DNA of 32,000 nucleotides from Candidatus Saccharimonadota bacterium (GTDB lineage Bacteria > Patescibacteriota > Gracilibacteria > Absconditabacterales > Absconditicoccaceae), in NCBI GenBank assembly GCA_000503875.1, contig CP006913.1, forward strand, positions 1,140,001 through 1,172,000, given 5' to 3'. Position 1 is the first letter of the stretch, and each line of letters begins with the position of its first letter. Positions 9,031-30,424 of the stretch are shown here, in pieces. The notes under the pieces were generated by a model. The model made no database searches, was not told the DNA's origin, and was given only the letters and a program-made list of their open reading frames with translations. The position numbers and the translations under genes were made by a program.

Positions 9031-9414
9031 ATGAAAAACAAACTTTTTGTTATCGAATCGGGAATAATTTTAGGGCTAACAATTATTTACCTATTGTTTC
9101 CACAAAAAAATGTTCATATGTTTTTTATAGTTCCATTCCTGCTTTTTGGTTATGTATTTGGACAATCTTTGAGTCAGGAATATTATAATCCTATAGGAAA
9201 TAAAATAACAAGTATCTTGATTATTTTTGGGTCAAGCGTACTCCTATCTGGGGTTGCTTATCTTCTTCAACGAGCAATGTTTGTAAAAAGCCTTTTTTCA
9301 GGGTATTTACTTTTCCTAGCCTCTGTTGTATGTTTAATTATTGTGATAATGTTTCTCCTTGGCAAAAACATATCACTATTAAACCAAAGAATCTATCATA
9401 ATGAATCACTATAA
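9031..9414 (+). CDS. Hypothetical integral membrane protein (127 aa, about 4 TM helices)
   Basis: Intact ORF whose length is made of strongly hydrophobic segments. Confidence 0.6.
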   Translation: MKNKLFVIESGIILGLTIIYLLFPQKNVHMFFIVPFLLFGYVFGQSLSQEYYNPIGNKITSILIIFGSSVLLSGVAYLLQRAMFVKSLFSGYLLFLASVVCLIIVIMFLLGKNISLLNQRIYHNESL

Positions 9415-9426
9415 ATACATAAAAAA

Positions 9427-9765
9427 ATGAAAAATCTATTTTTTGCTGCAAGTATTCTAGTAGTACTGGCCTCTTGCAATCCAAAAGAAAAACGTGCTTT
9501 TATCCTTGGACAGGAGAGAGGAAATGATACAACAATCATTGCGTTGAAATTTAATATGCCGAATGCATTTATTGTTTCTGTATTCACAGAATCAAGATTG
9601 TCTCCTAGCATAGAAAAATTTCCAACAAATTCTACTTACCTTCCACCAGATAAAAAGGGATTAACAGTTTATATTCCAACCACCAAAAGTGGAACAAGAT
9701 TCTTGGTTATGGTTACTGATGTAAAAAATCAGAAAACAATAATGATAGAATCAAAAACAGAGTAA
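9427..9765 (+). CDS. Hypothetical lipoprotein (112 aa)
   Basis: Signal peptide with lipobox MKNLFFAASILVVLASC (Cys17). The gene starts 13 nt after the preceding gene. Confidence 0.6.
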   Translation: MKNLFFAASILVVLASCNPKEKRAFILGQERGNDTTIIALKFNMPNAFIVSVFTESRLSPSIEKFPTNSTYLPPDKKGLTVYIPTTKSGTRFLVMVTDVKNQKTIMIESKTE

Positions 9766-11669: not shown

Positions 11670-12872
11670 ATGTCTGTCTATTCATTCTCTCAACTCCAGG
11701 TTTTCCAGCAATGCCCACGTAAATATCAGTACAAATATGTAGATCAAATCAAGGAAAAAGAATTTGAAAGTTCGCCAGATTTAATATTGGGACATAGTGT
11801 GCACAAGGTTTTGGAGAATCTCTATAACAATGTGAATGTCTTCAAAATTCCAAATCTAGAAGAGGTATTGGAAGATTTTCATGCTACACGAAACCAGGAA
11901 ATAGCAGATGCAACCAAAGAAAAGCCACTTCAGATCAAGGGACAACAAACCTTGGAAGATTATATCAGAAGAGGAGAACACTACGTGAATGCGTATTACA
12001 AAAAATATGCTCCATTTACAGGAGTCCAGGTGATAGCTACGGAAAGTATGGTGAATTTTGATTTAGACACCGCTGGACAACAAAAATTCCGCGGGGTAAT
12101 CGATAGAATAGATAAGGAAGGCGATACCTTTGTGATCAACGATTATAAGACCAACAAAAATCTCCCTCCCGAACAAAAGCAGGAATATACCGAACAACTT
12201 TCTCTCTATGGACTAGCACTCCAACAAAAATATGGAAAATATTTCAAACAAATAAAAGCCAGATTACATTATCTCCATTTTGATATTACGGACGAACGGG
12301 AAATTACGGATGATGTTTTGACTACGGTTGTCCAAAAATATTCGAGCATTATCGAGTGAGTAGAACACAAAAAATTCGCCTACAATATGGGGGACAAAAG
12401 GGCTTTTGAACCTGTTCAAAACGAGTATTGTAAATATTGCGAGTATATGTCGATTTGTCCCCTTCGGGCACACATGAAATACGATGACGAGGTAATATGA
12501 GGCGAACTGGGAGCGAAGACAGTGAAAGGTCTAGTCGACGAATACGTCCAGTTCGCCAAACAGGAATCCGAAGCAAAGGCGCAAAAAGAACTCCTCAAGG
12601 ATATGCTTGTTGAATACCTCGAAAAAAAATGACTCCTCAAATTATTTGGAAACGCCTATAAAATCTCTGCCAGCCAAGGAGAAAATGTCTCAATCAAAGA
12701 TAAAGATCTGCTCGTGACTAAACTCCAAGAACTTGGAATACTAAATGAAACCTTGGATATAGACAGATTTAAATTGCAGAAATTGATAAAAGACGGAAAA
12801 ATAGATATCTCTAAACTCAATTGATCAGCAGAAAAAAATGCAAGCTGGACACTAAGATGAAGCGCTTTATAA
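11670..12872 (+). CDS. PD-(D/E)XK nuclease family protein (Cas4/AddB-like Fe-S nuclease domain plus helical C-terminal extension)
   Basis: MSVYSFSQLQVFQQCPRKYQYKY... carries the N-terminal Cys. The catalytic region is GVIDRIDKEGDTFVINDYKT (D...D/E-x-K). The C-terminal Cys triad is CKYCEYMSIC. The frame continues across Gly-TGAs to TAA 12870-12872, giving 400 aa. Confidence 0.8.
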
Positions 12873-12905
12873 AAAAAACTCCTCTTATTCAGAGGAGTTT
12901 TGTTG
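12871..12905. terminator. Bidirectional rho-independent terminator between convergent genes
   Basis: A8 run, AACTCCTCT, TATTC loop, AGAGGAGTT, T-rich tail. The 9-bp perfect stem is flanked by A- and T-runs. Confidence 0.75.
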
Positions 12906-12919
12906 TTAAAACAGAAATA

Positions 12920-13423
12920 TTATTTATGGAAAATCACATTTCCACTACTGATTCCTTCTTCAATTTCCTCTTCATCAGAAATTTTTTCCAATTCTTTTTC
13001 GCATTTTTCGCAATGACTTACGAAAGGATCTTGGAATTTAATTGCTTGTATGATCATAAGCTCAACATCTATACTTTCGTCTCTAGCATTAATTACAAAA
13101 ATTTCTTCTTCACTCGTTTCTTGCTCTTCTTGTTTGATTTTTTCACTAATAACAAATCTGGAAACATATTCGGGAACAACAACTTTTCTTGTATAGTGTA
13201 CTCAACAACGATCGCAGGTTTCTTCAAGAGTACAAGAAATATTTTCTAAATTCACATACAAAGAATCTTGATTCAATGAACGTAAAACAATAGTTCCAGA
13301 AATCCCTTCCTTGTTAAGATTTGGTAATGCTGAAGTAGTTTTTTCTTCAAAAGTAAGGGTGTCTACTTTCCCTCATTCTTTCAATAAATCTCCAACTTTG
13401 ATAATAAAATTTTTATCTTTCAT
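12920..13423 (-). CDS. yceD: DUF177 / YceD-family protein
   Basis: Minus-strand sequence is MKDKNFIIKVGDLLKEGGKVDTLTFEEK...CTLEETCDRCGVHYTRKVVVPEY...DPFVSHCEKCEKE. Paired CxxC motifs and about 167 aa are typical of COG1399/YceD. There are three Gly-TGAs. Confidence 0.7.
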
Positions 13424-13524: not shown

Positions 13525-14706
13525 ATGAAAAATATGCGAAATATTACTAAGCAAAAATTTGATACCAAGATATTTTTTTCTTTTCATAATTTTTTTTCTC
13601 AACATATTTTCAAAAACGATATTGTAGCGGTTGCTGTTTCTGGCGGTCCAGATAGCATGTTTTTGAGTTGCTTACTTTATGATTTTTTTGTTTCTCAAAA
13701 ATATAATACAAAAAATCTGATTTTTATTCATCTCAATCACGGCGTAAGAACTGAAAGTATCGAAGAAGCGAAAAATATTAAACAACGATTTACATGAACA
13801 TCATTGGAAATTATTACCAGACCAAAAACACTCAAAGCAACAGAAAATGATCTTAGAAAACGAAGGTATCAAAAGTTTTTGGATACGATGATAAAGCATT
13901 GAGCAAACAAAATTTTTCTTGGACATCATTTTGATGATCGTGTAGAAACATCACTTTTAAACTTGCTTCGTGGATGTGGAGTAGATGGATTTATAGGAAT
14001 CAAACCAATCGAACACCATCATCTTTTACATGGAAAATTAGTTGTGAGACCGTTATTATCTCTTCGTAAAACAGAAATTCTTGATACATGTAAACAACAA
14101 AATATCCCTTATGTCCAAGATATTTCCAATCAAGATATTTCCGTAAGTCAGAGAAATTATTTGAGAAATGAAATTATTCCCAAGCTTTTTTTACAAAAAT
14201 GATTTGAAAAATTATTTCAAAAACGATACCAAAAATATGATAGCCAATCTATAGAAAACCTCTTACAACCAATAACAATAAGTCTTTATCGAAAAGCAAA
14301 ATCAGCATATTATTTGATAAAAAATAGAAAAGAATGTAGCGCCCAAGATCTTCTTCGTATCTTTAAACAACTACATGCAAGCGCTGGAATTACGACCAAA
14401 ACCTTACAAGAATTTCTGCCTTTTGTACAAACAGCAAACAAAGGTCGGAAATCAATTCAAGGCGTAATAGTTATGATTGCCCATGGAAAAGTATATTTCT
14501 TCGTTGCCTCAGAACGTTTTCGAGAAAAAACTATTGATAACAAAACTCAAATTACTACCCTTCATTATAGAGGGAAAACGCGGAATAAATATTGTATTAC
14601 CGAAAAAATTCCTATTTTCCGAAGGAACTTTATTCCTGTTGTTATAAAAGGAAATAAAATTATTTCTTGGGACAAAAAATGATGGGAAAACACGACCATT
14701 TTTTAA
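13525..14706 (+). CDS. tilS: tRNA(Ile)-lysidine synthase
   Basis: PP-loop VAVAVSGGPDSMFL, then IHLNHGVR and LGHHFDDRVETSLLNLLRG. Track ORFs 13525.., 13963.. and 14314.. share one frame and are joined by 4 Gly-TGAs. Stop is TAA 14704-14706. Confidence 0.9.
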
Positions 14707-14722
14707 TCTTTTTTACTACTTC

Positions 14723-15217
14723 ATGCGAGAATATATACAACCTATTGTATTCCAAATTACGTCTACACGATCATATATAGTTATTACTATTTCAGAAAAA
14801 CGAGGACGAACGCCACGAGTCGTAGAATATATTTTTGTTATTGGTGTTTTGTATCTTATAGCATTATTCTTACTCCACAAAGTCTATCGTTTTTTTGTCC
14901 ATTCGGTTTTAAAACAAAAAGCGAATTTTTTCTTGGCATGCGATACTGTTTTATATCAATTTCAATTAGAGAGTAACGAAAATCAACAGGATATATCTTG
15001 GATTAAAGAATTATTAAAAAAAGGATCGTATGAACAATCCTATAAATTATTTTTGGAAAAAACATCATTACTTCCTTTGGAAGCAGCAGAACACTTCAAA
15101 AGAAAACTTGAGAAAACTCACACCGCATACATCAATACATCCAAAAGAAAAACTTTTTGTGGGGTATTTTTGGTACTAGTTACTTTGGGCGTTTATAAGT
15201 TATTTCTAGAAAATTAA
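14723..15217 (+). CDS. Hypothetical membrane protein (164 aa)
   Basis: Intact ORF with two hydrophobic helices (IFVIGVLYLIALFLL and the C-terminal FCGVFLVLVTLGVY). Confidence 0.55.
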   Translation: MREYIQPIVFQITSTRSYIVITISEKRGRTPRVVEYIFVIGVLYLIALFLLHKVYRFFVHSVLKQKANFFLACDTVLYQFQLESNENQQDISWIKELLKKGSYEQSYKLFLEKTSLLPLEAAEHFKRKLEKTHTAYINTSKRKTFCGVFLVLVTLGVYKLFLEN

Positions 15218-15453
15218 TTTAATAAAATAGGTGGTCTTTTTTTGGATTGCTTTCTATCAAATTGTTCTAATTCTTCAGAAATCTGATATTCATTATGATG
15301 CTTTTTTTCTGGTTTTTTTGTTCAAACTCCTATTGCACGTCAAAGCTCTTCAAGTCCCATAGAAAGGCTGAGTCCTTTTCTTGTTCCAATAGTATTTGCC
15401 AGGCTTTCTTTTTGCTTTTCAGTTTGTTGGCCTAATTGATTATTTTCGCTCAT
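15214..15453 (-). CDS. Small hypothetical protein (79 aa), host-coded
   Basis: MSENNQLGQQTEKQKESLANTIGTRKGLSLSMGLEELGRAIGVGTKKPEKK... includes two Gly-TGAs, so it uses the host code. Its stop overlaps the stop of the convergent 14723..15217 gene. Confidence 0.5.
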
Positions 15454-15512
15454 AAGTGAATAGGAGAGATAAAACTAATTCTTATATATCTTTTTTTATG
15501 AGAAAAACAAAC

Positions 15513-15546
15513 AAAAAAAAGAGTTCCAGTAAAAAACTGGAACTCT
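15513..15546 (-). terminator. Strong rho-independent terminator of the T9SS-type operon
   Basis: On the minus strand: AGAGTTCCAGT, TTTTT loop, ACTGGAACTCT, then T8. The stem is 11 bp and lies 27 nt downstream of the TAA of the 453-aa gene. Confidence 0.8.
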
Positions 15547-15573
15547 TTAATCTATTATTTCTTCTGGTACTAG

Positions 15574-16935
15574 TTATTTACTACGCCAGATTTCTTGGCC
15601 ATCTAATTTCAACCAAAGAACTTCTTTGTTTTCGTATTCGTTCTTCTTCCAAAAGATTGCATAGCGTTTTTTGTCTGCACGAAGTAATGCAATAAAAGGC
15701 ATACTTCTTTCATCTTCAGGAAGACATCCCTTTTTAATGATTTTAGCCTGTTTGGTTAAGGCACTATCTAACTCGGCATAAACATAATCAATAACGAATT
15801 TATTAAGAGGAGATTCTCCTTCTTTTTCAATTACATCCATGCGGATGTTTTCATTATCTATACATTTAAAACGATTCTTAAAAAGAGGAACACTTGTCCA
15901 ATATCTTTGGTATGCACCAAGTTGAATTTCTCCCCTGAAAGGAACAAGTTCTAATTTTTCTAATTCAATTAAAAGTTGTTCTCTAGCGGTGATTGTATCA
16001 ATAGGTGTAGGTATAACTTGTCTCGTGAGCGTATCCAATGGAATACTATCCGATTTAGGAATTGTATCCAATACAGGAACACTGTCCAGTTGTATTGAAT
16101 CAAGTTTCGGAATAAATACAGGTTTTGTTAAGCTGTAAATGTCGTATCCACCTGATCCACCAGGACGATCAGATGCAAAATAATATAGGGAGTCAGTTTG
16201 TTTCCTAACATCTATAGTATTGCATCCAGAGATGTTAATAGGATAAGGAAGCTTTTGTGGAGCTTGCCATTCCCCATCAACAAAGAGAGATCGATATACA
16301 CAAAACCATCCATCCCGGTTGGAATTAAAATATAACTCTTTTCCGTTTGGAGTAATCCAAACACCATTCTCATCAAATGATGAATTGAGTATCTCTACAG
16401 GAACTGGTTTTTCTTTTCCTGTTTGAAAGTAGATGTCATAATTACCACTACGATTGCTCGTAAAATAAAGAGAATCTCCTTTTGTAGCTATACTATTTTC
16501 ATCATAATCGGAATTGATGTAAGGAACTTCTTGTAATGATTCTATGCTAATTCCTTGTTTCCTTGGAGCCATAAACAACTTTCCTTGGTCATTGAAATAA
16601 CCTCGATAAAAAAACCAATACTTATTAGACATACCAACCAATGCTGAATTTGCATCGATATTGGCACTGCCATAACTAAGTTTCTTTACCTTACCAAAGC
16701 TAGTATCTGCCATCTGTGTATAATACACCTTCTCTGTATATTCCAGAAGTCTATCTTCACGATTATTTCTTCGTTTAGAAGTAAACAACAACATAGAATC
16801 TACAGGAAAAGGTGAATACTCTGCAGCAACCGAATTGATGTCTAGATTTTTCATAACCCAGGTTGAATCCGGTTGCTGAGCAAACCCCAAAAAAGAACAA
16901 GAAACAGAATAAATAATTATCAGTAGCTTTTTCAT
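15574..16935 (-). CDS. PD40/TolB-like beta-propeller repeat protein with an unassigned C-terminal domain (third gene of the T9SS cargo triad)
   Basis: Signal peptide MKKLLIIIYSVSCSFLGFAQQ. Repeated PD40-type motifs are LLFTSKRRN, LYFTSNRSGNYDIY, LYFNSNRDGWFCVY and YYFASDRPGGSGGYDIY. The C-terminal ~130 aa begins FRGEIQLGAYQRY. No TGA. Stop is TAA. Confidence 0.8.
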   Translation of the reverse strand: MKKLLIIIYSVSCSFLGFAQQPDSTWVMKNLDINSVAAEYSPFPVDSMLLFTSKRRNNREDRLLEYTEKVYYTQMADTSFGKVKKLSYGSANIDANSALVGMSNKYWFFYRGYFNDQGKLFMAPRKQGISIESLQEVPYINSDYDENSIATKGDSLYFTSNRSGNYDIYFQTGKEKPVPVEILNSSFDENGVWITPNGKELYFNSNRDGWFCVYRSLFVDGEWQAPQKLPYPINISGCNTIDVRKQTDSLYYFASDRPGGSGGYDIYSLTKPVFIPKLDSIQLDSVPVLDTIPKSDSIPLDTLTRQVIPTPIDTITAREQLLIELEKLELVPFRGEIQLGAYQRYWTSVPLFKNRFKCIDNENIRMDVIEKEGESPLNKFVIDYVYAELDSALTKQAKIIKKGCLPEDERSMPFIALLRADKKRYAIFWKKNEYENKEVLWLKLDGQEIWRSK

Positions 16936-16941
16936 ACGCTA

Positions 16942-17823
16942 CTATTTAGAGGATTTCGAATAAGGAAGCTTTAGCATTAAGACAACCTCATGTTTGGTAA
17001 ACGAATAACCATATACGTCACCAAATGAATAAGAGCCGCAATACCCAAATGATATATTTTGGACATTAATTCCAAAACCACCTTTTATCGTATTTGCAGA
17101 TGCATATCCTATGCTAAAAAGAATATCCTTATTGAGAATAAATTTTCCAGATACCCCATATTGTACGCTACTGAAAGTTTGTGTGATAACATATCCACTT
17201 CCCTCCAAGAACAATACATTTTCCATCAAAGTAAATCTGTACATACCACTAGCAGCATACGTAATATTAGTTTTGTTTTCAAAACTACTTACCATCCAAT
17301 CAGTTTGACTGGGAAGTAAATTATACGCAGCGATACCAACATAGTATCTATCTACTTGATTAAGTGCTAAACCGAAATTGGCATTAAACCAGTTTCCAGA
17401 TTCGGCACCCTGGAGAATAGGATCATCTATATCGTGTACTTCTACACGATCTCTCATTAATTTTAATTGGTTAAATCCGCCACTTAATCCAAACGAAAGT
17501 TTGGAACCACCAACAGGTACATGGTAAATAAAAGTAGCCTCAGCAGAAAGGTTTTGTAGTACGCCACCTTCTTGCGAAGCAATCTTAAATCCACCTGCAA
17601 CCCGTTGATTATTAAACGGTGAACTCCCCCAAAACATAAAGGATTTCGGATGATAATCATAGGCACCCATTTCTGTTTGATAGAGCGTACCCAATTTTAC
17701 CATTTCATTGTATCCGCCCAAACTTGGATTGGCTAAATATGGGTCATAGCCAGCCCCTAATTGAGCGAACCCTTTCGTTGATATAAGCACTACCAACAAA
17801 AGGAAAATTCTGATTTTTTTCAT
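16942..17823 (-). CDS. PorP/SprF-family type IX secretion system membrane protein
   Basis: 293 aa with signal peptide MKKIRIFLLLVVLISTKGFAQ. It has the N-terminal YLANPSLGGY motif, alternating beta-strand-like sequence, and a position immediately downstream of a type-B CTD cargo gene. No TGA. Stop is TAG. Confidence 0.8.
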   Translation of the reverse strand: MKKIRIFLLLVVLISTKGFAQLGAGYDPYLANPSLGGYNEMVKLGTLYQTEMGAYDYHPKSFMFWGSSPFNNQRVAGGFKIASQEGGVLQNLSAEATFIYHVPVGGSKLSFGLSGGFNQLKLMRDRVEVHDIDDPILQGAESGNWFNANFGLALNQVDRYYVGIAAYNLLPSQTDWMVSSFENKTNITYAASGMYRFTLMENVLFLEGSGYVITQTFSSVQYGVSGKFILNKDILFSIGYASANTIKGGFGINVQNISFGYCGSYSFGDVYGYSFTKHEVVLMLKLPYSKSSK

Positions 17824-17842
17824 TGTAATATATTTTTGTTGG

Positions 17843-20401
17843 TTAGTACAATATAGTTATTGTTTTCCAATATGGTTTTTCAGAACCATCTTGTTTAACA
17901 ACTTTTAAGTATAAATAAACAAGTGATCCGGAAGCAACAAGATTACCATTTTTATTCTTGGCATCCCAAATGGTCTGAGAAGGATCTGTTGATGTAAAGA
18001 TTTCGCCATCTTTGTTTTGGATAACAAGTACTATTGAGATAGCATTGTTACACAAAGAACTAAAATCCAATACGTCATTATCTCCATCTCCATTTGGAGT
18101 AACAAGATTGGGAATAGCTACACCATTTCCTGCCATAATTTCGACAGAATCTGTTGTAACACAACCATTATTATCGGTTATTTGCACATAATGCCGACCA
18201 GCTGCCAAAGAATCCGCTTCCTGAGTTGTTTGAACGGGAATACCACTCCATAAGTAAGTATGCGGTGGGGTAAAATGATCCACATATTGTACTAAGGCCG
18301 TACCATCCTCGCATTCAGGACAAGAAGTATTTTCAACTCTGAAATAAGTTCTAGGATGATCAGGTTGTTCAATAATAACCTTTTCCATAGAGATACATCC
18401 ATTATCATCGGTAACCGTTACATCATAAGACCCTGCCTTCAGTCTATCAATAATAAAACTGTTTGCGGGAGTTGTAATAGTAACCGTAGTATCAACACCT
18501 AAATAATTAGTTCCATCAAGTACTAATGTACTATTTGGTCCAGAGGTACCACCTGATACATTCACTTCAACACTTCCTCGTCCATCATAGCATAGGCTAT
18601 GGGTTGGGTTAATAGTTACTACCAAAGGGAGTGGTTGTACAAACGTAATAGTGGTATCAAAGTCACAAGTTCCATTTGAAATACGAACCAGATGATCACC
18701 AATAGGCATATCAACAAAGCTTGTAGTGTCATCAAATAACACATTTTGCGTAACTCCACCTACAGTAATATCTAGAGGAAATGCTTCCAAGTTATGAACT
18801 CTAATTATCCCTAATTCGTCGTTACACGAGATAGGAGTATTTACAAATTCAAATTGGAAATTTGCTGGATTAGTAAGTGTCCAGGTTGTGTCAAAAACAC
18901 AGCCAACACTGTCCTTAAGATGTAAGTCATAAATTCCACTACTAAGATTTGTTATAGCATTGGTATTGTTATTCATAAGTACGCCATCTTTTTTCCAGAC
19001 AAAAGAGTTTCCTCCATTACCTCCAATAACTGTTGTCGTGATACTAGCATTGGTGTATTCATAACAACCTACAGGAACAACAACATCTGTTACATGAAGT
19101 CGGGCTGGTTCATTTATTGTTACCGCTGGCGGAATAAATGTACATCCGTTTTCATCAGTAATTGTCAATGTATACGTTCCAGCAGCAAGTCCAGTAATAG
19201 AAGCAGTCGTTTGACCACTATCCCAAGAATAACTTAATTGACCAGTTCCTCCACTAAAATTGGCAGTAATAGAGCCATCATTAGCTTGGAAACAAGTCAG
19301 ATCTTTTTTAATTAGTTCTCCTTGAATAGGTGAATCAGGTTCCTTTATAATTACACTTTGATCCAAAGCACATCCTGTAGAATCTTCTACATGAATAGTA
19401 TATCTACCAGCAAATAAGTCAGTAACTGCTGCATTATTGCTAGAGAATCCACTCGGACCAGTAATTGTGTAAACAAAACCACTATAACTTCCTTCTGCAA
19501 CTGCGTTAATACGTCCCGTATTATCTCCATAACACAAAATATTTCTTTGTGTGTAGGAAATTTTTATTGGTGTAAGAACACTGTCAACCAACCAAGAATG
19601 TCGAAAACCTTTATTATCGTTTGTTACGACTTTAAAGATATTTCTCCCTGGATAAACTTCAGAAGAAAAACTTGCTACAGTATCTGCTACACTTGTTACA
19701 TACAGTGGACCAGGAAGTAATTCAACAATAGTAACCGTGTCTTCCGGGAACTGCACTTGTGCAGGTAAATTAGCAGGAACTAAAATTGGTCTTACATCAC
19801 TAATTGGCGCTGTTGCATCATAGCAAGCAGTAGAATCAATTTCGTAAGTCGTAGTAATTCCAGATAATTCATTAACAACAACAGTATCATTTCTTTGACA
19901 ACCGTTTATATCAGTAAGCGTAATAAAATACGTTCCTGAATAAAGATTATCGAAAACATTAGCTGTTTGTGTTGTTTCAATAGTAGTAGTACTATCAATC
20001 AAATTATAGGTAAACCATCCGGTTCCACCTCCAGCTGTAATAGTAATCCTCCCATTTGGCAAAGGCCAATTGGAATTAGGAACTATCGCATATGCTGCAG
20101 TGATCGCAGGAGGATTATCCAGCGTATAAGTAAATGTTTCTGTTGCCAAAAGGGCATTAGTAACAGTTACGGAATACAAAGCAGCATCCAAACCAGAAGC
20201 GACTTTCCCTGAAAGAGTTGGTATAACTATACCATTTCGTTCCCATACATACGTATAAGGAGGATTAATCAATGTAGTAGTAACGGTTATTTCACCGTCC
20301 TTACCATCATGACACTTAATGTTTTCTGTGGCAGTGATCTGTGAAAAACCAGACAGCCAAAAAAACAAAAGTACCAACGTTACAATAATTTTTTGTCTCA
20401 T
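17843..20401 (-). CDS. SprB-repeat cell-surface adhesin with a T9SS type-B sorting (gliding-motility-associated) C-terminal domain
   Basis: Signal peptide MRQKIIVTLVLLFFWLSGFSQ. About 8 repeats of ~75 aa follow the pattern C..(D/N)G.I......GG....Y.W......GL.AG.Y...(T/V)D.NGC. The C-terminus is IPNLVTPNGDGDNDVLDF...WDAKNKNGNLVASGSLVYLYLKV. No TGA in 852 codons. Stop is TAA. Confidence 0.9.
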   Translation of the reverse strand: MRQKIIVTLVLLFFWLSGFSQITATENIKCHDGKDGEITVTTTLINPPYTYVWERNGIVIPTLSGKVASGLDAALYSVTVTNALLATETFTYTLDNPPAITAAYAIVPNSNWPLPNGRITITAGGGTGWFTYNLIDSTTTIETTQTANVFDNLYSGTYFITLTDINGCQRNDTVVVNELSGITTTYEIDSTACYDATAPISDVRPILVPANLPAQVQFPEDTVTIVELLPGPLYVTSVADTVASFSSEVYPGRNIFKVVTNDNKGFRHSWLVDSVLTPIKISYTQRNILCYGDNTGRINAVAEGSYSGFVYTITGPSGFSSNNAAVTDLFAGRYTIHVEDSTGCALDQSVIIKEPDSPIQGELIKKDLTCFQANDGSITANFSGGTGQLSYSWDSGQTTASITGLAAGTYTLTITDENGCTFIPPAVTINEPARLHVTDVVVPVGCYEYTNASITTTVIGGNGGNSFVWKKDGVLMNNNTNAITNLSSGIYDLHLKDSVGCVFDTTWTLTNPANFQFEFVNTPISCNDELGIIRVHNLEAFPLDITVGGVTQNVLFDDTTSFVDMPIGDHLVRISNGTCDFDTTITFVQPLPLVVTINPTHSLCYDGRGSVEVNVSGGTSGPNSTLVLDGTNYLGVDTTVTITTPANSFIIDRLKAGSYDVTVTDDNGCISMEKVIIEQPDHPRTYFRVENTSCPECEDGTALVQYVDHFTPPHTYLWSGIPVQTTQEADSLAAGRHYVQITDNNGCVTTDSVEIMAGNGVAIPNLVTPNGDGDNDVLDFSSLCNNAISIVLVIQNKDGEIFTSTDPSQTIWDAKNKNGNLVASGSLVYLYLKVVKQDGSEKPYWKTITILY

Positions 20402-20571
20402 AAGTGGTTAATTTAATTTATATTTAATTTTTGTTTAATTTCTTTGTTAATTACCTAGCTAGATATACCCGAAAAATAAGCATTCCAGCCATCATAGTAT
20501 ATGTAGCTATTTGGCGATAAAAGTCAATACAATAATGAGAATAAATTATATAAAACAAGAAACAAATCAGA

Positions 20572-20599
20572 TTGATTTTTTTGTAAAATTTCCTATATT
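20572..20599 (+). promoter_or_regulatory. Candidate sigma70-type promoter of dnaJ
   Basis: TTGATT (20572-20577), N16, TATATT (20594-20599), 45 nt upstream of the ATG. Confidence 0.45.
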
Positions 20600-20624
20600 A
20601 TCACCTCGACAAAAAAAGTGCTAT
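20598..20624 (+). promoter_or_regulatory. Degenerate CIRCE-like inverted repeat (possible HrcA operator)
   Basis: TTATCACCT-N9-AAGTGCTAT compared with consensus TTAGCACTC-N9-GAGTGCTAA gives 13/18 matches. It overlaps the putative -10 box of dnaJ. Confidence 0.35.
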
Positions 20625-20643
20625 TTACTATTAACGTATAGAT

Positions 20644-21693
20644 ATGGATTTTGATGTAAAAAAGGATTATTACAAAATATTAGATATTCCAGAAACGGCC
20701 ACAGCGGAAGACGCAAAGAAAGCATTCAAAAAGCTTGCAGTAAAACATCACCCAGACCGCTGATGAGATAAAGCAAAATTTCAAGAGATCAACGAAGCTT
20801 ATCAAACCTTAGGAGATGAAAAAAAGAAAGCTCAATACGATGCTTATCGTAGTGGTGGCGGAGGACAAGGATGATATGATTTTGGCGGATTTGGCGGTTG
20901 ATGACAAGGATGATTTGATTTCTGAGGAGTAGATCTCGGAGATATTTTTGGAAATATGTTTGGAGGTGGATTTGGAGGACAACAAACAAGAGCAGAATCA
21001 TTTAGTGGAGAAGATATCAAAGTTGCTATAGAAATTACTTTTGAAGAATGATTTTTGGGAGTAACCAAAAAGGTCGCTTACAATAGAAAAATAAAAATGT
21101 CTGGTATTGATGAAAAAAATTGTAGCACTTGTAAAGGTCAATGAAGAGTTTCAAGAACAGTTCAAACACCTTTTGGAATGATGCAAACTCAAACTGTTTG
21201 TCCAGATTGTGGAGGTGTTGGTCACCAATATACCAAGGATGGAAAGACTATTAAATCTCCATTTGAAAATCACAAAGAAACGATTGAAGTTAAAATTCCA
21301 GAAGGAATCGATGATGGCGTTTATATAAAATTTACTGGAAAAGGACACCAATGATTAAATGGTTATGATGGTGATTTATATATCAAAATAAATATTCAGA
21401 CTTCTCCTATATATGAAAGAAGATCAGATAATTTATATATCAAAGTTCCTGTAACCATTTTTGATCTTGTGCTTGGAGCAGAAAAACAAATCACTCATCC
21501 AGAAGGAAAACTAAAAGTAAAAATCCCAAAAGCTACTCAGGTAGGAGATATGGTCAAAATATCTGGAAAATGATTTGGTAAGTGATGAATCTTTGGTAAA
21601 AAATGAGATCTTTATCTGATTCCAAAAGTAGACATCCCAAAAAAATTAAGCAAAGAAGAAGAAAAATTGTGGAAAGAATTAGCTTCGATATAG
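20644..21693 (+). CDS. dnaJ: Molecular chaperone DnaJ
   Basis: J-domain [35 protein letters not shown], with GG encoded TGA TGA at 20761-20766. A G/F-rich region is partly TGA-encoded. The zinc finger is CSTCKGQGRV...CPDCGGVG. There are 14 Gly-TGAs. Stop is TAG 21691-21693. Confidence 0.95.
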
Positions 21694-27026: not shown

Positions 27027-29411
27027 ATGGCAGACAATCTAGTTATCGTGGAGTCTCCTGCGAAATCACAAACAATCAAAAAGTTTCTTTGACCAGATTA
27101 TGAGGTGAAAGCGTCCTTCGGACACGTAGTAGATCTTCCTCAAAAATCATTGGGAATCGATATAGAAAATAATTTTCAGCCACAATACGAAGTCTCTCCT
27201 GACAAGAAAAAAGTAATTTCAGAACTTAAATCCTTAGCAAAAAATGCCAAAAAGGTATGGATCGCTACCGATGAAGACCGCGAGGGAGAAGCTATCGGAC
27301 GACACGTAGCCAACCAATTAGGATTAGATATCAAAAAGACATCAAGAATCGTATTTCACGAAATTACTAAAGATGCAATCCAACACGCTGTAGCAAATCC
27401 AAGAACATTAGATATGCATTTAGTTGATGCTCAGCAGGCAAGAAGAGTCCTCGATAGACTTGTTTGATTCGAATTGTCACCGGTGCTCCGAAGAAAAATT
27501 AAAGCAGGTCTCAGTGCCTGAAGAGTACAATCAGTTGCGGTAAGATTGATTGTTGAAAGAGAAAGAGAAATACAAAAATTCGAATCAGAATCTAGCTTTA
27601 AAGTAGTTGGATTTTTTATAGGAGATGCAAAACAACCATTCAAAGCAGAACTTTCTAAAGAATTCAAAACCCAGCCAGAAGCCCAAAGCTTCTTGGAAGA
27701 AATAAAAGCAGCATTATACAATATCTCAGATATCGAGGTGAAACCAGGTAAAAAATCACCTTCAGCTCCATTTACAACATCAACACTTCAACAAGAAGCA
27801 AGTCGTAAAATGGGATTTCCTGTTGCCAGAACCATGCAAGTTGCTCAGAAATTATACGAAGCAGGATTGATTACCTACATGAGAACTGATTCCGTAAATC
27901 TTTCTGAAACAGCAATCGCTGCGTGTCAGCAAGAAATTACAAAACTCTATGGAAAGGATTATTCCAAACCAACAAACTATGTGACCAAATCAAAAGGCTC
28001 ACAAGAAGCGCATGAATGTATCAGACCTACGCATATGGAAAATTCAGTAGCAGGAGCAGATCCTCAAGAAAAAAAACTCTATGAACTGATTTGGAAAAGA
28101 ACATTAGCTTCTCAAATGGCCCCAGCCGAAGTAGAAAAGACTAAGGCTACGATAGATATATCAACCAGTAAACTAAAATTTATCGCCACAGGAGAAGTAA
28201 TTAAATTCGAATGATTTCTCAAAGTATATATGGAATCTCATGATGACGAAGATGATCAAAATCAAGAAGGAATGTTACCAATTTTGAAAAAAGGAGAACT
28301 CTTGACGATGCAATCAATTCTTGCGGGTCAAAAATTCAAAAACCATCCACCAAGATATACAGAAGCAAGTCTGGTTAAAAAGCTTGAAGAGCTAGGAATT
28401 TGACGTCCGTCTACTTATGCACCGACAATTTCTACGATTCAAAAAAGAGGATACGTGGTGAAAGAAGATAGACCGGGGGAACAGAGATCTTTTGTCGAGA
28501 TGATCCTCAAAGCCGGACAAATTACCACAGAAACCAAAAAACAGATGACCGGTGCCGAGAAACAAAAGCTGTTCCCAACTGATATTGGGATGGTTGTTAC
28601 TGATTTTCTCGTAGAACATTTTTCTGATATTATGGATTATAACTTCACAGCAAATGTAGAAGAAGATTTCGATAAAATCGCAGAAAATCAATTACAACGA
28701 CAAGATATGATGCTCAATTTTTATGGATCATTTCATGCATCGGTTGTAGATACTATGGGAAGTGCAGAAAGACAAAGCGGTGAAAGAGAGTTGGGAATTG
28801 ATCCCGTAAGTGGTAGAAAAGTAATTGCAAGGATTGGAAGGTTTGGTCCAATGGTACAAATCGGACATCAAGACGATGAAGAAAAACCAAAATTCGCATC
28901 ACTTCCAGCAGGTAAAAATATAGAAACGGTTACGATAGAAGACGCACTCAAAATGTTTGCATTACCAAGAGTTGTTGGTATGTATGAGGGGAAAGAAATG
29001 GCTGCAGCAATAGGAAGATTCTGACCATATATCAAGCGAGCATCGGTGTTCGCATCATTGCCTCGTGACGCAGGATACGACGTTTTCACGATAACTGCTG
29101 AGCAAGCCGAAACCTTGGTAAAAGCCAAAGTTGAACAAGTTCAAAATAGAAATATCAGTGCCTTCGATTACCACGGAAAACAAATCGAGGTGCTCAAAGG
29201 TCAATACGGACCATATATTAAATTTGACAAAAATAATTTCAAAATACCAAAAGGATGAAAAGATGCAACGGATCTTACCCTCGAAGATTGTATGGCTATC
29301 ATAGGTCCTAAAGCATTATGATCAGACACACCGGCAAAATCATCTGCTAAATCAGAAAAACCAAAGAAAAAAGCACCAGTTAAAAAAGCTTCACCTAAAA
29401 AGAAGAAATAA
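27027..29411 (+). CDS. topA: DNA topoisomerase I
   Basis: Toprim domain MADNLVIVESPAKSQTIKKFLG...ATDEDREGEAIG. Also DAQQARRVLDRLVGFELSPVL, SAGRVQSVA (Gly-TGA at 27519) and the active-site region LITYMRTDS. The C-terminus is Lys-rich. Five track fragments share one frame and are joined by 8 Gly-TGAs. Stop is TAA 29409-29411. Confidence 0.95.
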
Positions 29412-30424
29412 TGTACTACCTTCGATACGAGTACCTTTCAGAAAGTTTCCCGAGATGTAATGTCTTCAAAATACGTGATAACAAGGAACTCTTGCACTAC
29501 ACGATTCATGAAGATCTTTCTAATATTGTTCAACAATCCAGAGAATATCCCAAATACGATCACTTTTTCTTGCTCGACGAAAGCAGATTTTCTTTTTTTA
29601 GATGCGATGTAAATCAACTTTTTGAGGAGGAAATCACTATTCATACGCTCAATGAACTCACCAAAGAAAAAATTAGAGAGACTAAAGACGCTCATGGAAT
29701 TTGATGAGAAGTTGTGATGAATTATGTCGATACGATATTCGTAGATGGCAAAGAAAAGAAATTTCTTATTGGTCAAAAAGGTCAGATTTTCTTTAGATTA
29801 TATATTATATTTATAGCAAAAACGAGTCTGAATTTGTTTGACTCGGTCTATGGAACAACATTGGAAAAGAAAAATATAAATCTGATTCCTCAGTCATTAT
29901 ATACCTTACTATTTTTGAGAAACAATCTCAAGAAAGATAATTTTGTACTGCTGTATATTACCGAGAGCTATGCAAAAGCAATCACCGTGAAAGACGGTTT
30001 CTATGCGGGAATTGACGTGTTAAACCTCGGTATGGGAGCACTCAAACAAATGTACAAAGACAATGGCGTTGTCCAGTATCGATACAAAGAATACCAAGCA
30101 ATAGAAGCAAACCCTCTTGCAAAAGAACTGGTAGTAGAAACTCTGGAATTTTATTCACAACTCTTTTGCAAACGATTATTCGAAAAACATCTCGGCGGTA
30201 TGGATATTATTGTTATTTCTCCTATCACCAAAAACGAGCATTTCATCGAAACCTTCAACAAAGAATATAGAAAAATGAGTAACAACTATATCGTTCCTTT
30301 CCATCATTCCAACTCTCTCAATTCTTTTGGTATAGAACGAGAACCAGAAAATATGGACAGCCTCGTCTTTGTAAATCAAGAAGAAAAGATTAGAAAATTG
30401 CTGTTGGGAGAGGAGAAAAATTAA
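29411..30424 (+). CDS. Hypothetical protein (337 aa), translationally coupled to topA
   Basis: Its ATG overlaps the topA stop (TAATG). Track ORFs 29411.. and 29714.. share one frame and are joined by TGA TGA (29702-29707). No confident family assignment. Confidence 0.65.

What the first reader, a model, noticed from the sequence alone, without database searches (positions are those of the whole stretch)
15513..20571. A 4.8-kb TGA-free, Bacteroidota-type operon is embedded between TGA-recoded host genes, suggesting cross-phylum, cross-code horizontal transfer
Three back-to-back minus-strand ORFs of 852, 293 and 453 codons, with gaps of 19 and 6 nt, contain no in-frame TGA. All their many glycines use GGN. 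Every host CDS longer than about 170 codons in this window has at least 2 Gly-TGAs. My counts are about 28 in the 577-codon ABC gene, 14 in dnaJ, 8 in topA and 4 in tilS. Even at the lowest host rate, about 16 TGAs would be expected in 1,598 codons. The encoded families (type-B T9SS CTD adhesin, PorP/SprF, PD40 protein) and their order are characteristic of Bacteroidota. Their signal peptides end GFSQ, GFAQ and GFAQQ, which fits the Gln-after-cleavage-site habit of Bacteroidota. Both flanks are unmistakably host: 15214-15453 carries two Gly-TGAs, and the dnaJ promoter and gene start at about 20572. The best reading is a recent acquisition from a standard-code Bacteroidota donor that has not yet drifted toward host codon usage. 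The donor could be a neighbour or prey/host of this presumably epibiotic CPR cell.
Basis: partly seen in the sequence, partly recalled or inferred. Interest (0 to 1): 0.9.

Follow-up and report, generated by a model that had tools for sequence, protein, structure and literature searches.

The report
Old, stop-codon-free Bacteroidota adhesin module in CPR
A small bacterium that reads the codon TGA as glycine carries three Bacteroidota-type surface-protein genes that contain no TGA at all. These genes are not a recent acquisition: they have sat at the same place in the genomes of several relatives for a long time, and they are also shared with a bacterium that uses the standard code. Something keeps them free of TGA even though TGA is common in the genes around them.

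Summary
At window 15574-20401 (minus strand) there are three back-to-back genes of 453, 293 and 852 codons, with gaps of 6 and 19 nt. They contain 126 glycine codons and not one TGA. The genome uses code 25 (TGA = Gly): it has a tRNA-Gly with anticodon UCA and only RF1, and 31% of its Gly codons are TGA. The genes encode a textbook Bacteroidota module for anchoring T9SS type-B cargo: an SprB-repeat adhesin with a type-B CTD (CHU_C), a PorP/SprF protein (its model folds as a 14-strand β-barrel, like T9SS barrel chains) and a PorE-like PD40 propeller. Bacteroidales carry them in the same order.

The same module sits next to dnaJ in at least 7 genomes or contigs of this code-25 genus. Its synonymous divergence (dS 0.6-1.7) and GC3 match those of the host genes, and it is under purifying selection (dN/dS 0.09-0.31). 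Its nearest Bacteroidota relatives are only about 37% identical. The locus varies within the genus: some members lack the module and its tree disagrees with the host tree. A code-11, BamA-less, about 0.8-Mb genome carries a close version (60% identity, where its RNA polymerase is only 44% identical). Across 290 aligned Gly sites in the code-25 copies there is no TGA, while the neighbouring host genes switch between TGA and GGN all the time. Something actively keeps the module TGA-free.

The parts
17843..20401 (-). Type-B CTD surface adhesin (852 aa): Sec signal peptide ending SGFS|Q, SprB repeats, CHU_C/type-B CTD at 762-838; 0 TGA / 68 Gly
16942..17823 (-). PorP/SprF-family protein (293 aa), predicted 14-strand β-barrel; signal peptide KGFA|Q; 0 TGA / 34 Gly
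15574..16935 (-). PD40 β-propeller protein (453 aa), PorE-like partner (NCBIfam PorE / CHU_0125 matches below cut-off); signal peptide LGFA|QQ; 0 TGA / 24 Gly
15518..15548 (-). Strong palindromic intrinsic terminator (13-bp stem) just past the PD40 stop, conserved at the same place in genus relatives; ends the operon
20402..20643 (.). Divergent intergenic region between the CTD-adhesin start and dnaJ; conserved (80-86%) in relatives; sigma70-like promoter for dnaJ at 20572-20601 (+)
15454..15573 (.). Left junction intergenic region (79-aa ORF to PD40 stop), conserved in relatives
14723..15453 (.). Conserved host flank: 164-aa gene (+) and 79-aa ORF (-, 2 Gly-TGA); with tilS 13525-14706 it forms the fixed left boundary of the variable locus
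20644..21693 (+). dnaJ (host, 14 TGA), fixed right boundary of the variable locus

Best explanation
The three genes are a Bacteroidales-derived surface-adhesin module of the kind that anchors T9SS type-B cargo: an SprB-like adhesin with a type-B CTD, a PorP/SprF β-barrel that in Bacteroidota binds that CTD, and a PorE-like PD40 propeller. The module was acquired long ago by a lineage of code-25 CPR (labelled Ca. Peribacteria or Ca. Absconditabacteria in NCBI).

It sits at a variable locus between a conserved tilS/164-aa-gene block and dnaJ. At that locus it has been kept, lost (empty sites) or exchanged among genus members, and it is also shared with a code-11, BamA-less small genome. Throughout, it has stayed completely free of TGA, which host genes at the same divergence acquire and lose freely.

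How it works (inferred):
- All three proteins carry Sec signal peptides, so they are exported across the cytoplasmic membrane.
- The CTD adhesin is probably held at the CPR surface through its CTD binding the PorP-like protein, as SprB binds SprF in Flavobacterium (PMC9143113). The PD40 protein would be the scaffold.
- The complex would mediate attachment of the epibiotic CPR cell to other cells or surfaces.
- How a β-barrel is placed in a cell without BamA is unexplained.

What keeps the module TGA-free is not settled. The most likely cause is that it keeps passing through, or must stay compatible with, standard-code genomes, so that TGA would act as a premature stop there. Shown: module identity, age, synteny, purifying selection, TGA-free maintenance, the cross-code homolog. 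Inferred: surface-adhesin function and the cause of TGA avoidance.
For: Module identity and Bacteroidota origin:
- Pfam/NCBIfam families.
- The same three-gene order in Bacteroidales loci L035 and L036.
- The PorP model has the 14-strand barrel fold and matches the T9SS barrel chains 8gl6_F and 6h3i_F at TMq 0.63-0.64.
- Type-B CTD proteins bind PorP-like proteins (PMC9143113).

Old and native:
- At the dnaJ locus in G005, G006, G007, G008, L042-L044, L050 and L055.
- dS 0.6-1.7 and dN/dS 0.09-0.31, comparable to host genes.
- GC3 equals the host's.
- Junction intergenic sequences and the terminator are conserved.

Variable locus:
- Empty site in G003 and G001.
- A divergent PD40 variant in G002.
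- The PorP tree rejects host clades (p-AU 0.029 and 9e-10).

TGA-free maintenance:
- Host orthologs: 212 of 374 aligned Gly sites involve TGA.
- Cassette: 0 of 290, despite 53 GGA codons each one step from TGA.
- L023, another T9SS-type cargo family, is TGA-free in 6 genus genomes.

Cross-code sharing:
- Code-11 genome G041 (about 0.8 Mb, no Omp85) has the module at 60/54/44% identity, while its UvrB is 41% and RNAP β' 44% identical to G000's.
- Its copies nest within the CPR clade in the PorP, PD40 and CTD trees.

Precedent: TGA-free phages of Gracilibacteria/Absconditabacteria inferred to infect both code-25 and code-11 hosts (PMC10746230).
Against: The cause of TGA-freeness is not pinned down:
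- The AU test cannot reject monophyly of the code-25 PorPs apart from the code-11 lineage (p = 0.107), so the direction and frequency of cross-code transfer are unresolved.
- The genus copies have diverged as much as host genes, which implies long residence in code-25 cells, where neutral TGA gain would be expected. Either selection acts, or cassettes are refreshed from code-11 sources that have been sampled only once (G041 and its relatives).

The function is untested:
- G000 lacks Omp85/BamA, so the Bacteroidota mechanism (OM β-barrel PorP inside a T9SS) cannot work as such.
- No CPR-specific anchor motif (LPXTG or C-terminal TM) was seen in the adhesin.
- No RNA evidence.
Confidence: 0.6

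Rival explanations
1. One reading: a recent horizontal acquisition from a standard-code Bacteroidota donor, not yet ameliorated to host codon usage.
For: TGA absence; Bacteroidota family content and gene order; GC of the module is slightly higher (0.36 vs 0.31).
Against: - Present at the same locus in at least 7 genus assemblies.
- dS 0.6-1.7 is similar to host genes and GC3 equals the host's; the higher GC comes from amino-acid composition.
- The nearest Bacteroidota homologs are only about 37% identical and the CPR copies form their own clade.
Confidence: 0.04
2. Chimeric assembly or contaminating Bacteroidota contig fused into the CPR genome.
For: A compositional shift in GC across 15.5-20.5 kb.
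Against: - The same module-plus-flank structure appears in independent assemblies from many samples.
- The junction intergenic regions and the terminator are conserved.
- The host genome is a single contig, 97.75% complete and 1.04% contaminated.
- Read laying found only related strains and no contradiction.
Confidence: 0.01
3. A native locus whose TGA-freeness comes from strong translational selection, because the adhesin complex is very highly expressed and UGA decoding by the single tRNA-Gly(UCA) is costly. No exchange across codes is needed.
For: The genome's most highly expressed genes are strongly TGA-depleted: EF-Tu 0/37, enolase 0/40, PPDK 1/76, EF-G 2/60. Ribosomal-protein operon genes are 21% vs 31% genome-wide. 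Surface adhesins can be abundant.
Against: - The module's CAI is low (15-37th percentile).
- Across genes, CAI is not negatively correlated with TGA fraction (rho +0.08).
- Secreted proteins in general are not TGA-depleted (34% vs 28% for cytoplasmic).
- Even ribosomal proteins keep 21% TGA.
- The TGA-free secreted proteins are specifically the Bacteroidota-type T9SS cargo.
Confidence: 0.2
4. The module is part of a gene pool exchanged across codes: between code-25 Gracilibacteria-class CPR and code-11 small-genome lineages (and ultimately Bacteroidales). A copy with TGA would be truncated whenever it entered a code-11 genome, so selection across the network keeps all copies TGA-free. This would be a cellular analogue of the dual-code phages of PMC10746230.
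For: - Code-11 G041 copy at 60% identity where its housekeeping genes are 41-44%.
- Code-11 copies nested inside the CPR clade in the PorP, PD40 and CTD trees.
- Incongruent module phylogeny and presence/absence polymorphism at a fixed locus.
- Precedent.
Against: - The AU test does not reject code-25 monophyly.
- Only one code-11 lineage was found.
- The long synonymous divergence among code-25 copies implies long code-25 residence.
Confidence: 0.35

Closest known systems
Flavobacterium johnsoniae SprB-SprF (type-B CTD gliding adhesin plus PorP-like anchor)
   Same: A type-B CTD adhesin with SprB repeats encoded next to a PorP/SprF-family protein. In F. johnsoniae, SprF binds SprB and anchors it at the surface (PMC9143113).
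   Different: Here a PorE-like PD40 protein is also part of the unit (as in the P. gingivalis PorE-PorP-PG1035 complex). The host is a code-25 CPR with no Omp85/BamA and presumably no T9SS. The genes are TGA-free and show no host-level codon adaptation.
Porphyromonas gingivalis PorE-PorP-PG1035 complex (T9SS)
   Same: Three partners of the same types: a type-B CTD cargo, a PorP 14-strand OM barrel and a PorE β-propeller scaffold (PMC9143113).
   Different: PorE there also has TPR and OmpA-like peptidoglycan-binding domains; the PD40 protein here lacks a detectable OmpA domain. The recipient has no outer membrane or BamA.
TGA-free (code-neutral) phages of Gracilibacteria/Absconditabacteria (PMC10746230)
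   Same: TGA avoidance in genetic material found in code-25 CPR lineages, explained there as compatibility with both code-25 and code-11 hosts.
   Different: Here it is a chromosomal, syntenic, cellular gene module, not a phage. It is also found in one code-11 cellular genome, with no viral contigs.
Strain-variable large extracellular attachment proteins of Ca. Peribacteria (PMC4736985)
   Same: Large, exported, variable proteins thought to attach these CPR to other cells; the variation is a source of differences between genotypes.
   Different: Those were cysteine-rich proteins of unclear origin. This is a Bacteroidota-derived T9SS-type module at a specific variable locus.

Membership tests
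Bacteroidota T9SS type-B cargo / PorP-like anchoring module | Cargo with a type-B CTD (CHU_C / TIGR04131) | tested here: met
   CHU_C at 762-838, 36.2 bits against a 27 cut-off; TIGR04131 26.3 bits, below its 35 cut-off; SprB repeats present.
Bacteroidota T9SS type-B cargo / PorP-like anchoring module | PorP/SprF-family partner encoded next to it, with a 14-strand β-barrel fold | tested here: met
   PF11751 and TIGR03519 above cut-off. AF2 model has about 14 long strands. Foldseek: OmpG barrels and T9SS chains 8gl6_F/6h3i_F, TMq 0.63-0.64.
Bacteroidota T9SS type-B cargo / PorP-like anchoring module | PorE-like partner (TPR + β-propeller + OmpA-like peptidoglycan-binding domain) | tested here: inconclusive
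   PD40 propeller present; NCBIfam PorE and CHU_0125-OmpA matches below cut-off; no OmpA_C Pfam hit. TPR not specifically tested.
Bacteroidota T9SS type-B cargo / PorP-like anchoring module | Host has an outer membrane (BamA) and a T9SS to secrete the cargo | tested here: not met
   No Omp85/BamA in G000; control genomes ring. Core T9SS genes (SprA, PorK-N, GldK-N) were not searched directly.
Recent horizontal transfer island | Compositional or codon-usage deviation from the host | tested here: not met
   GC3 equals host. CAI is low but codon usage is not foreign; the only deviation is TGA absence.
Recent horizontal transfer island | Absent from close relatives and nested in the donor clade | tested here: not met
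   Present in at least 7 genus assemblies at the same locus. CPR copies form their own clade; Bacteroidales are about 37% identical. Empty sites exist only in the more distant G001 and G003.
Dual-code-compatible (TGA-free) genetic elements of code-25 CPR | No TGA in code-25 copies | tested here: met
   0 of 290 aligned Gly sites across 5 genomes; L050, L055 and L052 copies also TGA-free.
Dual-code-compatible (TGA-free) genetic elements of code-25 CPR | Homologs present in standard-code genomes | tested here: met
   G041, L052 and L045/L046 are code-11 genomes with the module.
Dual-code-compatible (TGA-free) genetic elements of code-25 CPR | Carried by a mobile element (phage or plasmid) | tested here: not met
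   No match in IMG/VR viral contigs. No integrase or att structure at the junctions; only a chance 16-nt imperfect direct repeat.

The most novel reading that the evidence does not exclude
A chromosomal, Bacteroidota-derived surface-adhesin module circulates between CPR lineages that use different genetic codes (code 25 and code 11), possibly including transfer from code 25 to code 11. It is kept entirely free of TGA by selection acting across that gene network, while host genes beside it switch between TGA and GGN freely. This would be a cellular counterpart of dual-code phages, and a hotspot locus through which code-25 CPR exchange attachment proteins.
Probability: 0.3. Interest if true: 0.75.

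Novelty: new variant of a known kind. Interest (0 to 1): 0.55.

Why it matters
Reassigning a stop codon should make a genome a poor donor of genes to standard-code organisms and to some degree a poor recipient. A cellular gene module that stays TGA-free over long residence in code-25 genomes, and is shared with a code-11 genome, points to a way around that barrier: code-neutral genes.

It also shows that CPR epibionts keep Bacteroidota T9SS-type surface proteins (adhesin, PorP barrel, PorE-like propeller) even though they lack an outer membrane and BamA. That raises a concrete question about how these proteins are displayed on a monoderm CPR cell, and whether such CPR attach to Bacteroidota hosts.

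The TGA-free marker may be a general, cheap way to flag genes in code-25 genomes that cross the code barrier.

Tried and rejected
- Chimeric assembly: rejected. The module and flanks recur in independent assemblies. Read laying found only related strains with short contigs: no contradiction, but not decisive.
- Recent transfer: rejected.
- UGA ambiguity, with partial termination selecting against TGA: rejected. G000 has only RF1 (PAT motif) and no RF2.
- A general TGA bias against secreted proteins: rejected. Secreted proteins are not depleted.
- Expression-driven avoidance measured by CAI: not supported. The module's CAI is low, and CAI does not correlate with TGA fraction.
- Mobile-element carriage: the IMG/VR scan found nothing.
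- RNA evidence: no RNA holder listed. This is not evidence either way.
- L023 was checked as a second TGA-free T9SS cargo family in the code-11 genome G041: only a weak CTD-domain match, so that gene family was not informative for cross-code sharing.
- Host taxonomy: the relatives' NCBI labels conflict (Ca. Peribacteria for G005/G008, Ca. Absconditabacteria for G006). The genus was not placed more precisely.
- G041 taxonomy: it is about 0.8 Mb and lacks Omp85, but its RNAP β' is as distant from G000 as a Bacteroidota one (44%). Its phylum could not be named.

Full report
**Observation.** The window (G000:C1:1140001-1172000, part of a single 1.18-Mb contig) comes from a genome that reads TGA as glycine (code 25):
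- tRNA-Gly with anticodon UCA at c[1080583-1080656].
- The only class-I release factor carries the RF1 PAT motif and no RF2 SPF motif.
- 31.5% of all Gly codons are TGA.

Three minus-strand genes are confirmed:
- 17843-20401: an 852-aa adhesin with an SGFS|Q signal peptide, SprB repeats and a CHU_C (type-B CTD) domain.
- 16942-17823: a 293-aa PorP/SprF protein.
- 15574-16935: a 453-aa PD40 β-propeller with sub-threshold PorE/CHU_0125 matches.

They hold 126 Gly codons and no TGA. The 852-aa gene is the most TGA-depleted of the 418 genes with at least 20 Gly. A conserved palindromic terminator (15518-15548) closes the operon just past the PD40 stop.

37 of 645 genes of 200 codons or more are TGA-free. 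These include EF-Tu, enolase, UvrB and four other Bacteroidota-type T9SS cargo genes.

**Not recent, not a chimera.** The same module sits next to dnaJ, between a conserved tilS/164-aa-gene block and dnaJ, in genus relatives:
- G005, G006, G007 and G008.
- Metagenome contigs L042-L044.
- Logan/JGI contigs L050, L055 and L056.

The module's host-like features:
- Divergence from relatives matches the host genes: dS 0.6-1.7 against 0.6-2.1 for dnaJ, tilS, cmk and the 439-aa gene.
- It is under purifying selection (dN/dS 0.09-0.31).
- Its GC3 equals the host's.
- Junction intergenic sequences are conserved at 80-90%.

The locus varies within the genus:
- The more distant members G003 and G001 have empty sites (tilS-164-small ORF-dnaJ).
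- G002 has a divergent TGA-free PD40 gene next to dnaJ.
- The PorP tree rejects well-supported host clades (p-AU 0.029 and 9e-10).

So this is an old, native but variable locus where the module has been gained, lost and exchanged.

**Origin.** Only 18 PorP homologs exist in 5.8 billion clustered proteins. Outside this CPR group, the closest carriers are Bacteroidales (Paludibacteraceae, UBA1754, a pig-gut MAG) at about 37% identity, with the same CTD-PorP-PD40 gene order. The CPR copies form one clade (100/99) sister to them. The module was therefore acquired as a unit from Bacteroidales, long ago.

**Cross-code sharing.** A code-11 genome, G041 ('bacterium AMR_MDS_3994'), carries the module in a different genomic context, as do related contigs L045, L046 and L052:
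- G041 is about 0.8 Mb and lacks Omp85.
- Its PorP, PD40 and CTD proteins are 60%, 54% and 44% identical to G000's, while its UvrB is 41% and RNAP β' 44%.
- In the PorP, PD40 and CTD trees its copies fall inside the CPR clade. The AU test cannot reject code-25 monophyly (p = 0.107), so the direction of transfer is open.

**TGA is held at zero.** Between G000 and relatives, host orthologs share 374 aligned Gly sites. 150 of them differ in TGA status and 62 are TGA in both. Across 290 aligned Gly sites in the module there is no TGA in any genome, even though 53 of the G000 module's Gly codons are GGA, one step from TGA. A second family of T9SS-type cargo (L023) is also TGA-free in 6 genus genomes.

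Explanations tested and found wanting:
- Ambiguous UGA: there is no RF2.
- A general bias against secreted proteins: none.
- Expression measured by CAI: not supported; ribosomal proteins keep 21% TGA.

The remaining candidates are:
- Recurrent passage through, or need for compatibility with, code-11 genomes. The precedent is TGA-free CPR phages thought to infect both code types (PMC10746230).
- Strong but unexplained selection specific to these genes.

**Function (inferred).** In Bacteroidota, type-B CTD cargo is anchored at the surface by binding a PorP-like 14-strand OM barrel, which binds the PorE propeller (PMC9143113). The CPR PorP keeps the barrel fold: pLDDT 78, pTM 0.76, TMq 0.63-0.64 to T9SS chains 8gl6_F and 6h3i_F. 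All three CPR proteins have Sec signal peptides. The likeliest role is a surface-adhesion complex for attaching the epibiotic CPR cell. How it is displayed without an outer membrane or BamA is unknown.

**Verdict.** The module and its flanks are host genes of long standing, not a chimera and not a recent transfer. The striking, under-explained feature is TGA-free maintenance together with sharing across codes, which makes this a new variant of a known kind.

Noticed in passing
G000:C1:391066-392832(-), 1085957-1087333(-), 1087299-1088582(-), 1088687-1089592(-): Four more Bacteroidota-type T9SS cargo or associated genes (type-A CTD/TapA-like, PKD, Ig_7 CHU_C-associated), all TGA-free. The L023 family is TGA-free in 6 genus relatives too.
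   Followed up: partly
G000:C1:694051-695583(+): UvrB is TGA-free (0/26 Gly), 41% identical to the code-11 G041 UvrB. It may be another code-neutral or foreign gene.
   Followed up: no
G000 EF-Tu 28730-29908, enolase 139883-141139: The most highly expressed housekeeping genes are completely TGA-free, while the ribosomal-protein operon keeps 21% TGA. This points to expression-linked UGA avoidance in this code-25 genome.
   Followed up: partly
G041 (code-11, ~0.8 Mb), locus L078 and RNAP β' L059/L062: This BamA-less small genome also encodes a type-A CTD protein, and its RNAP β' hit is split into two segments within one 1309-aa frame (an insertion).
   Followed up: no
window 15443-15458 and 20391-20406: An imperfect 16-nt direct repeat (CACTTATG start context) at the 79-aa ORF start and at the CTD-adhesin start, flanking the module. 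It is probably chance, not a target-site duplication.
   Followed up: partly
G001 locus L090 4884-5345; G002 locus L089 582-2015: At the empty or variant sites of the same locus: a 153-aa TGA-free ORF with no Pfam hit (G001), and a divergent TGA-free PD40 protein, 30% identical (G002). This suggests other TGA-free cargo also cycles through this hotspot.
   Followed up: partly
window 9031-9414(+), 9427-9765(+), 12821-13249(+): Short ORFs with no TGA and no Pfam hit elsewhere in the window.
   Followed up: no
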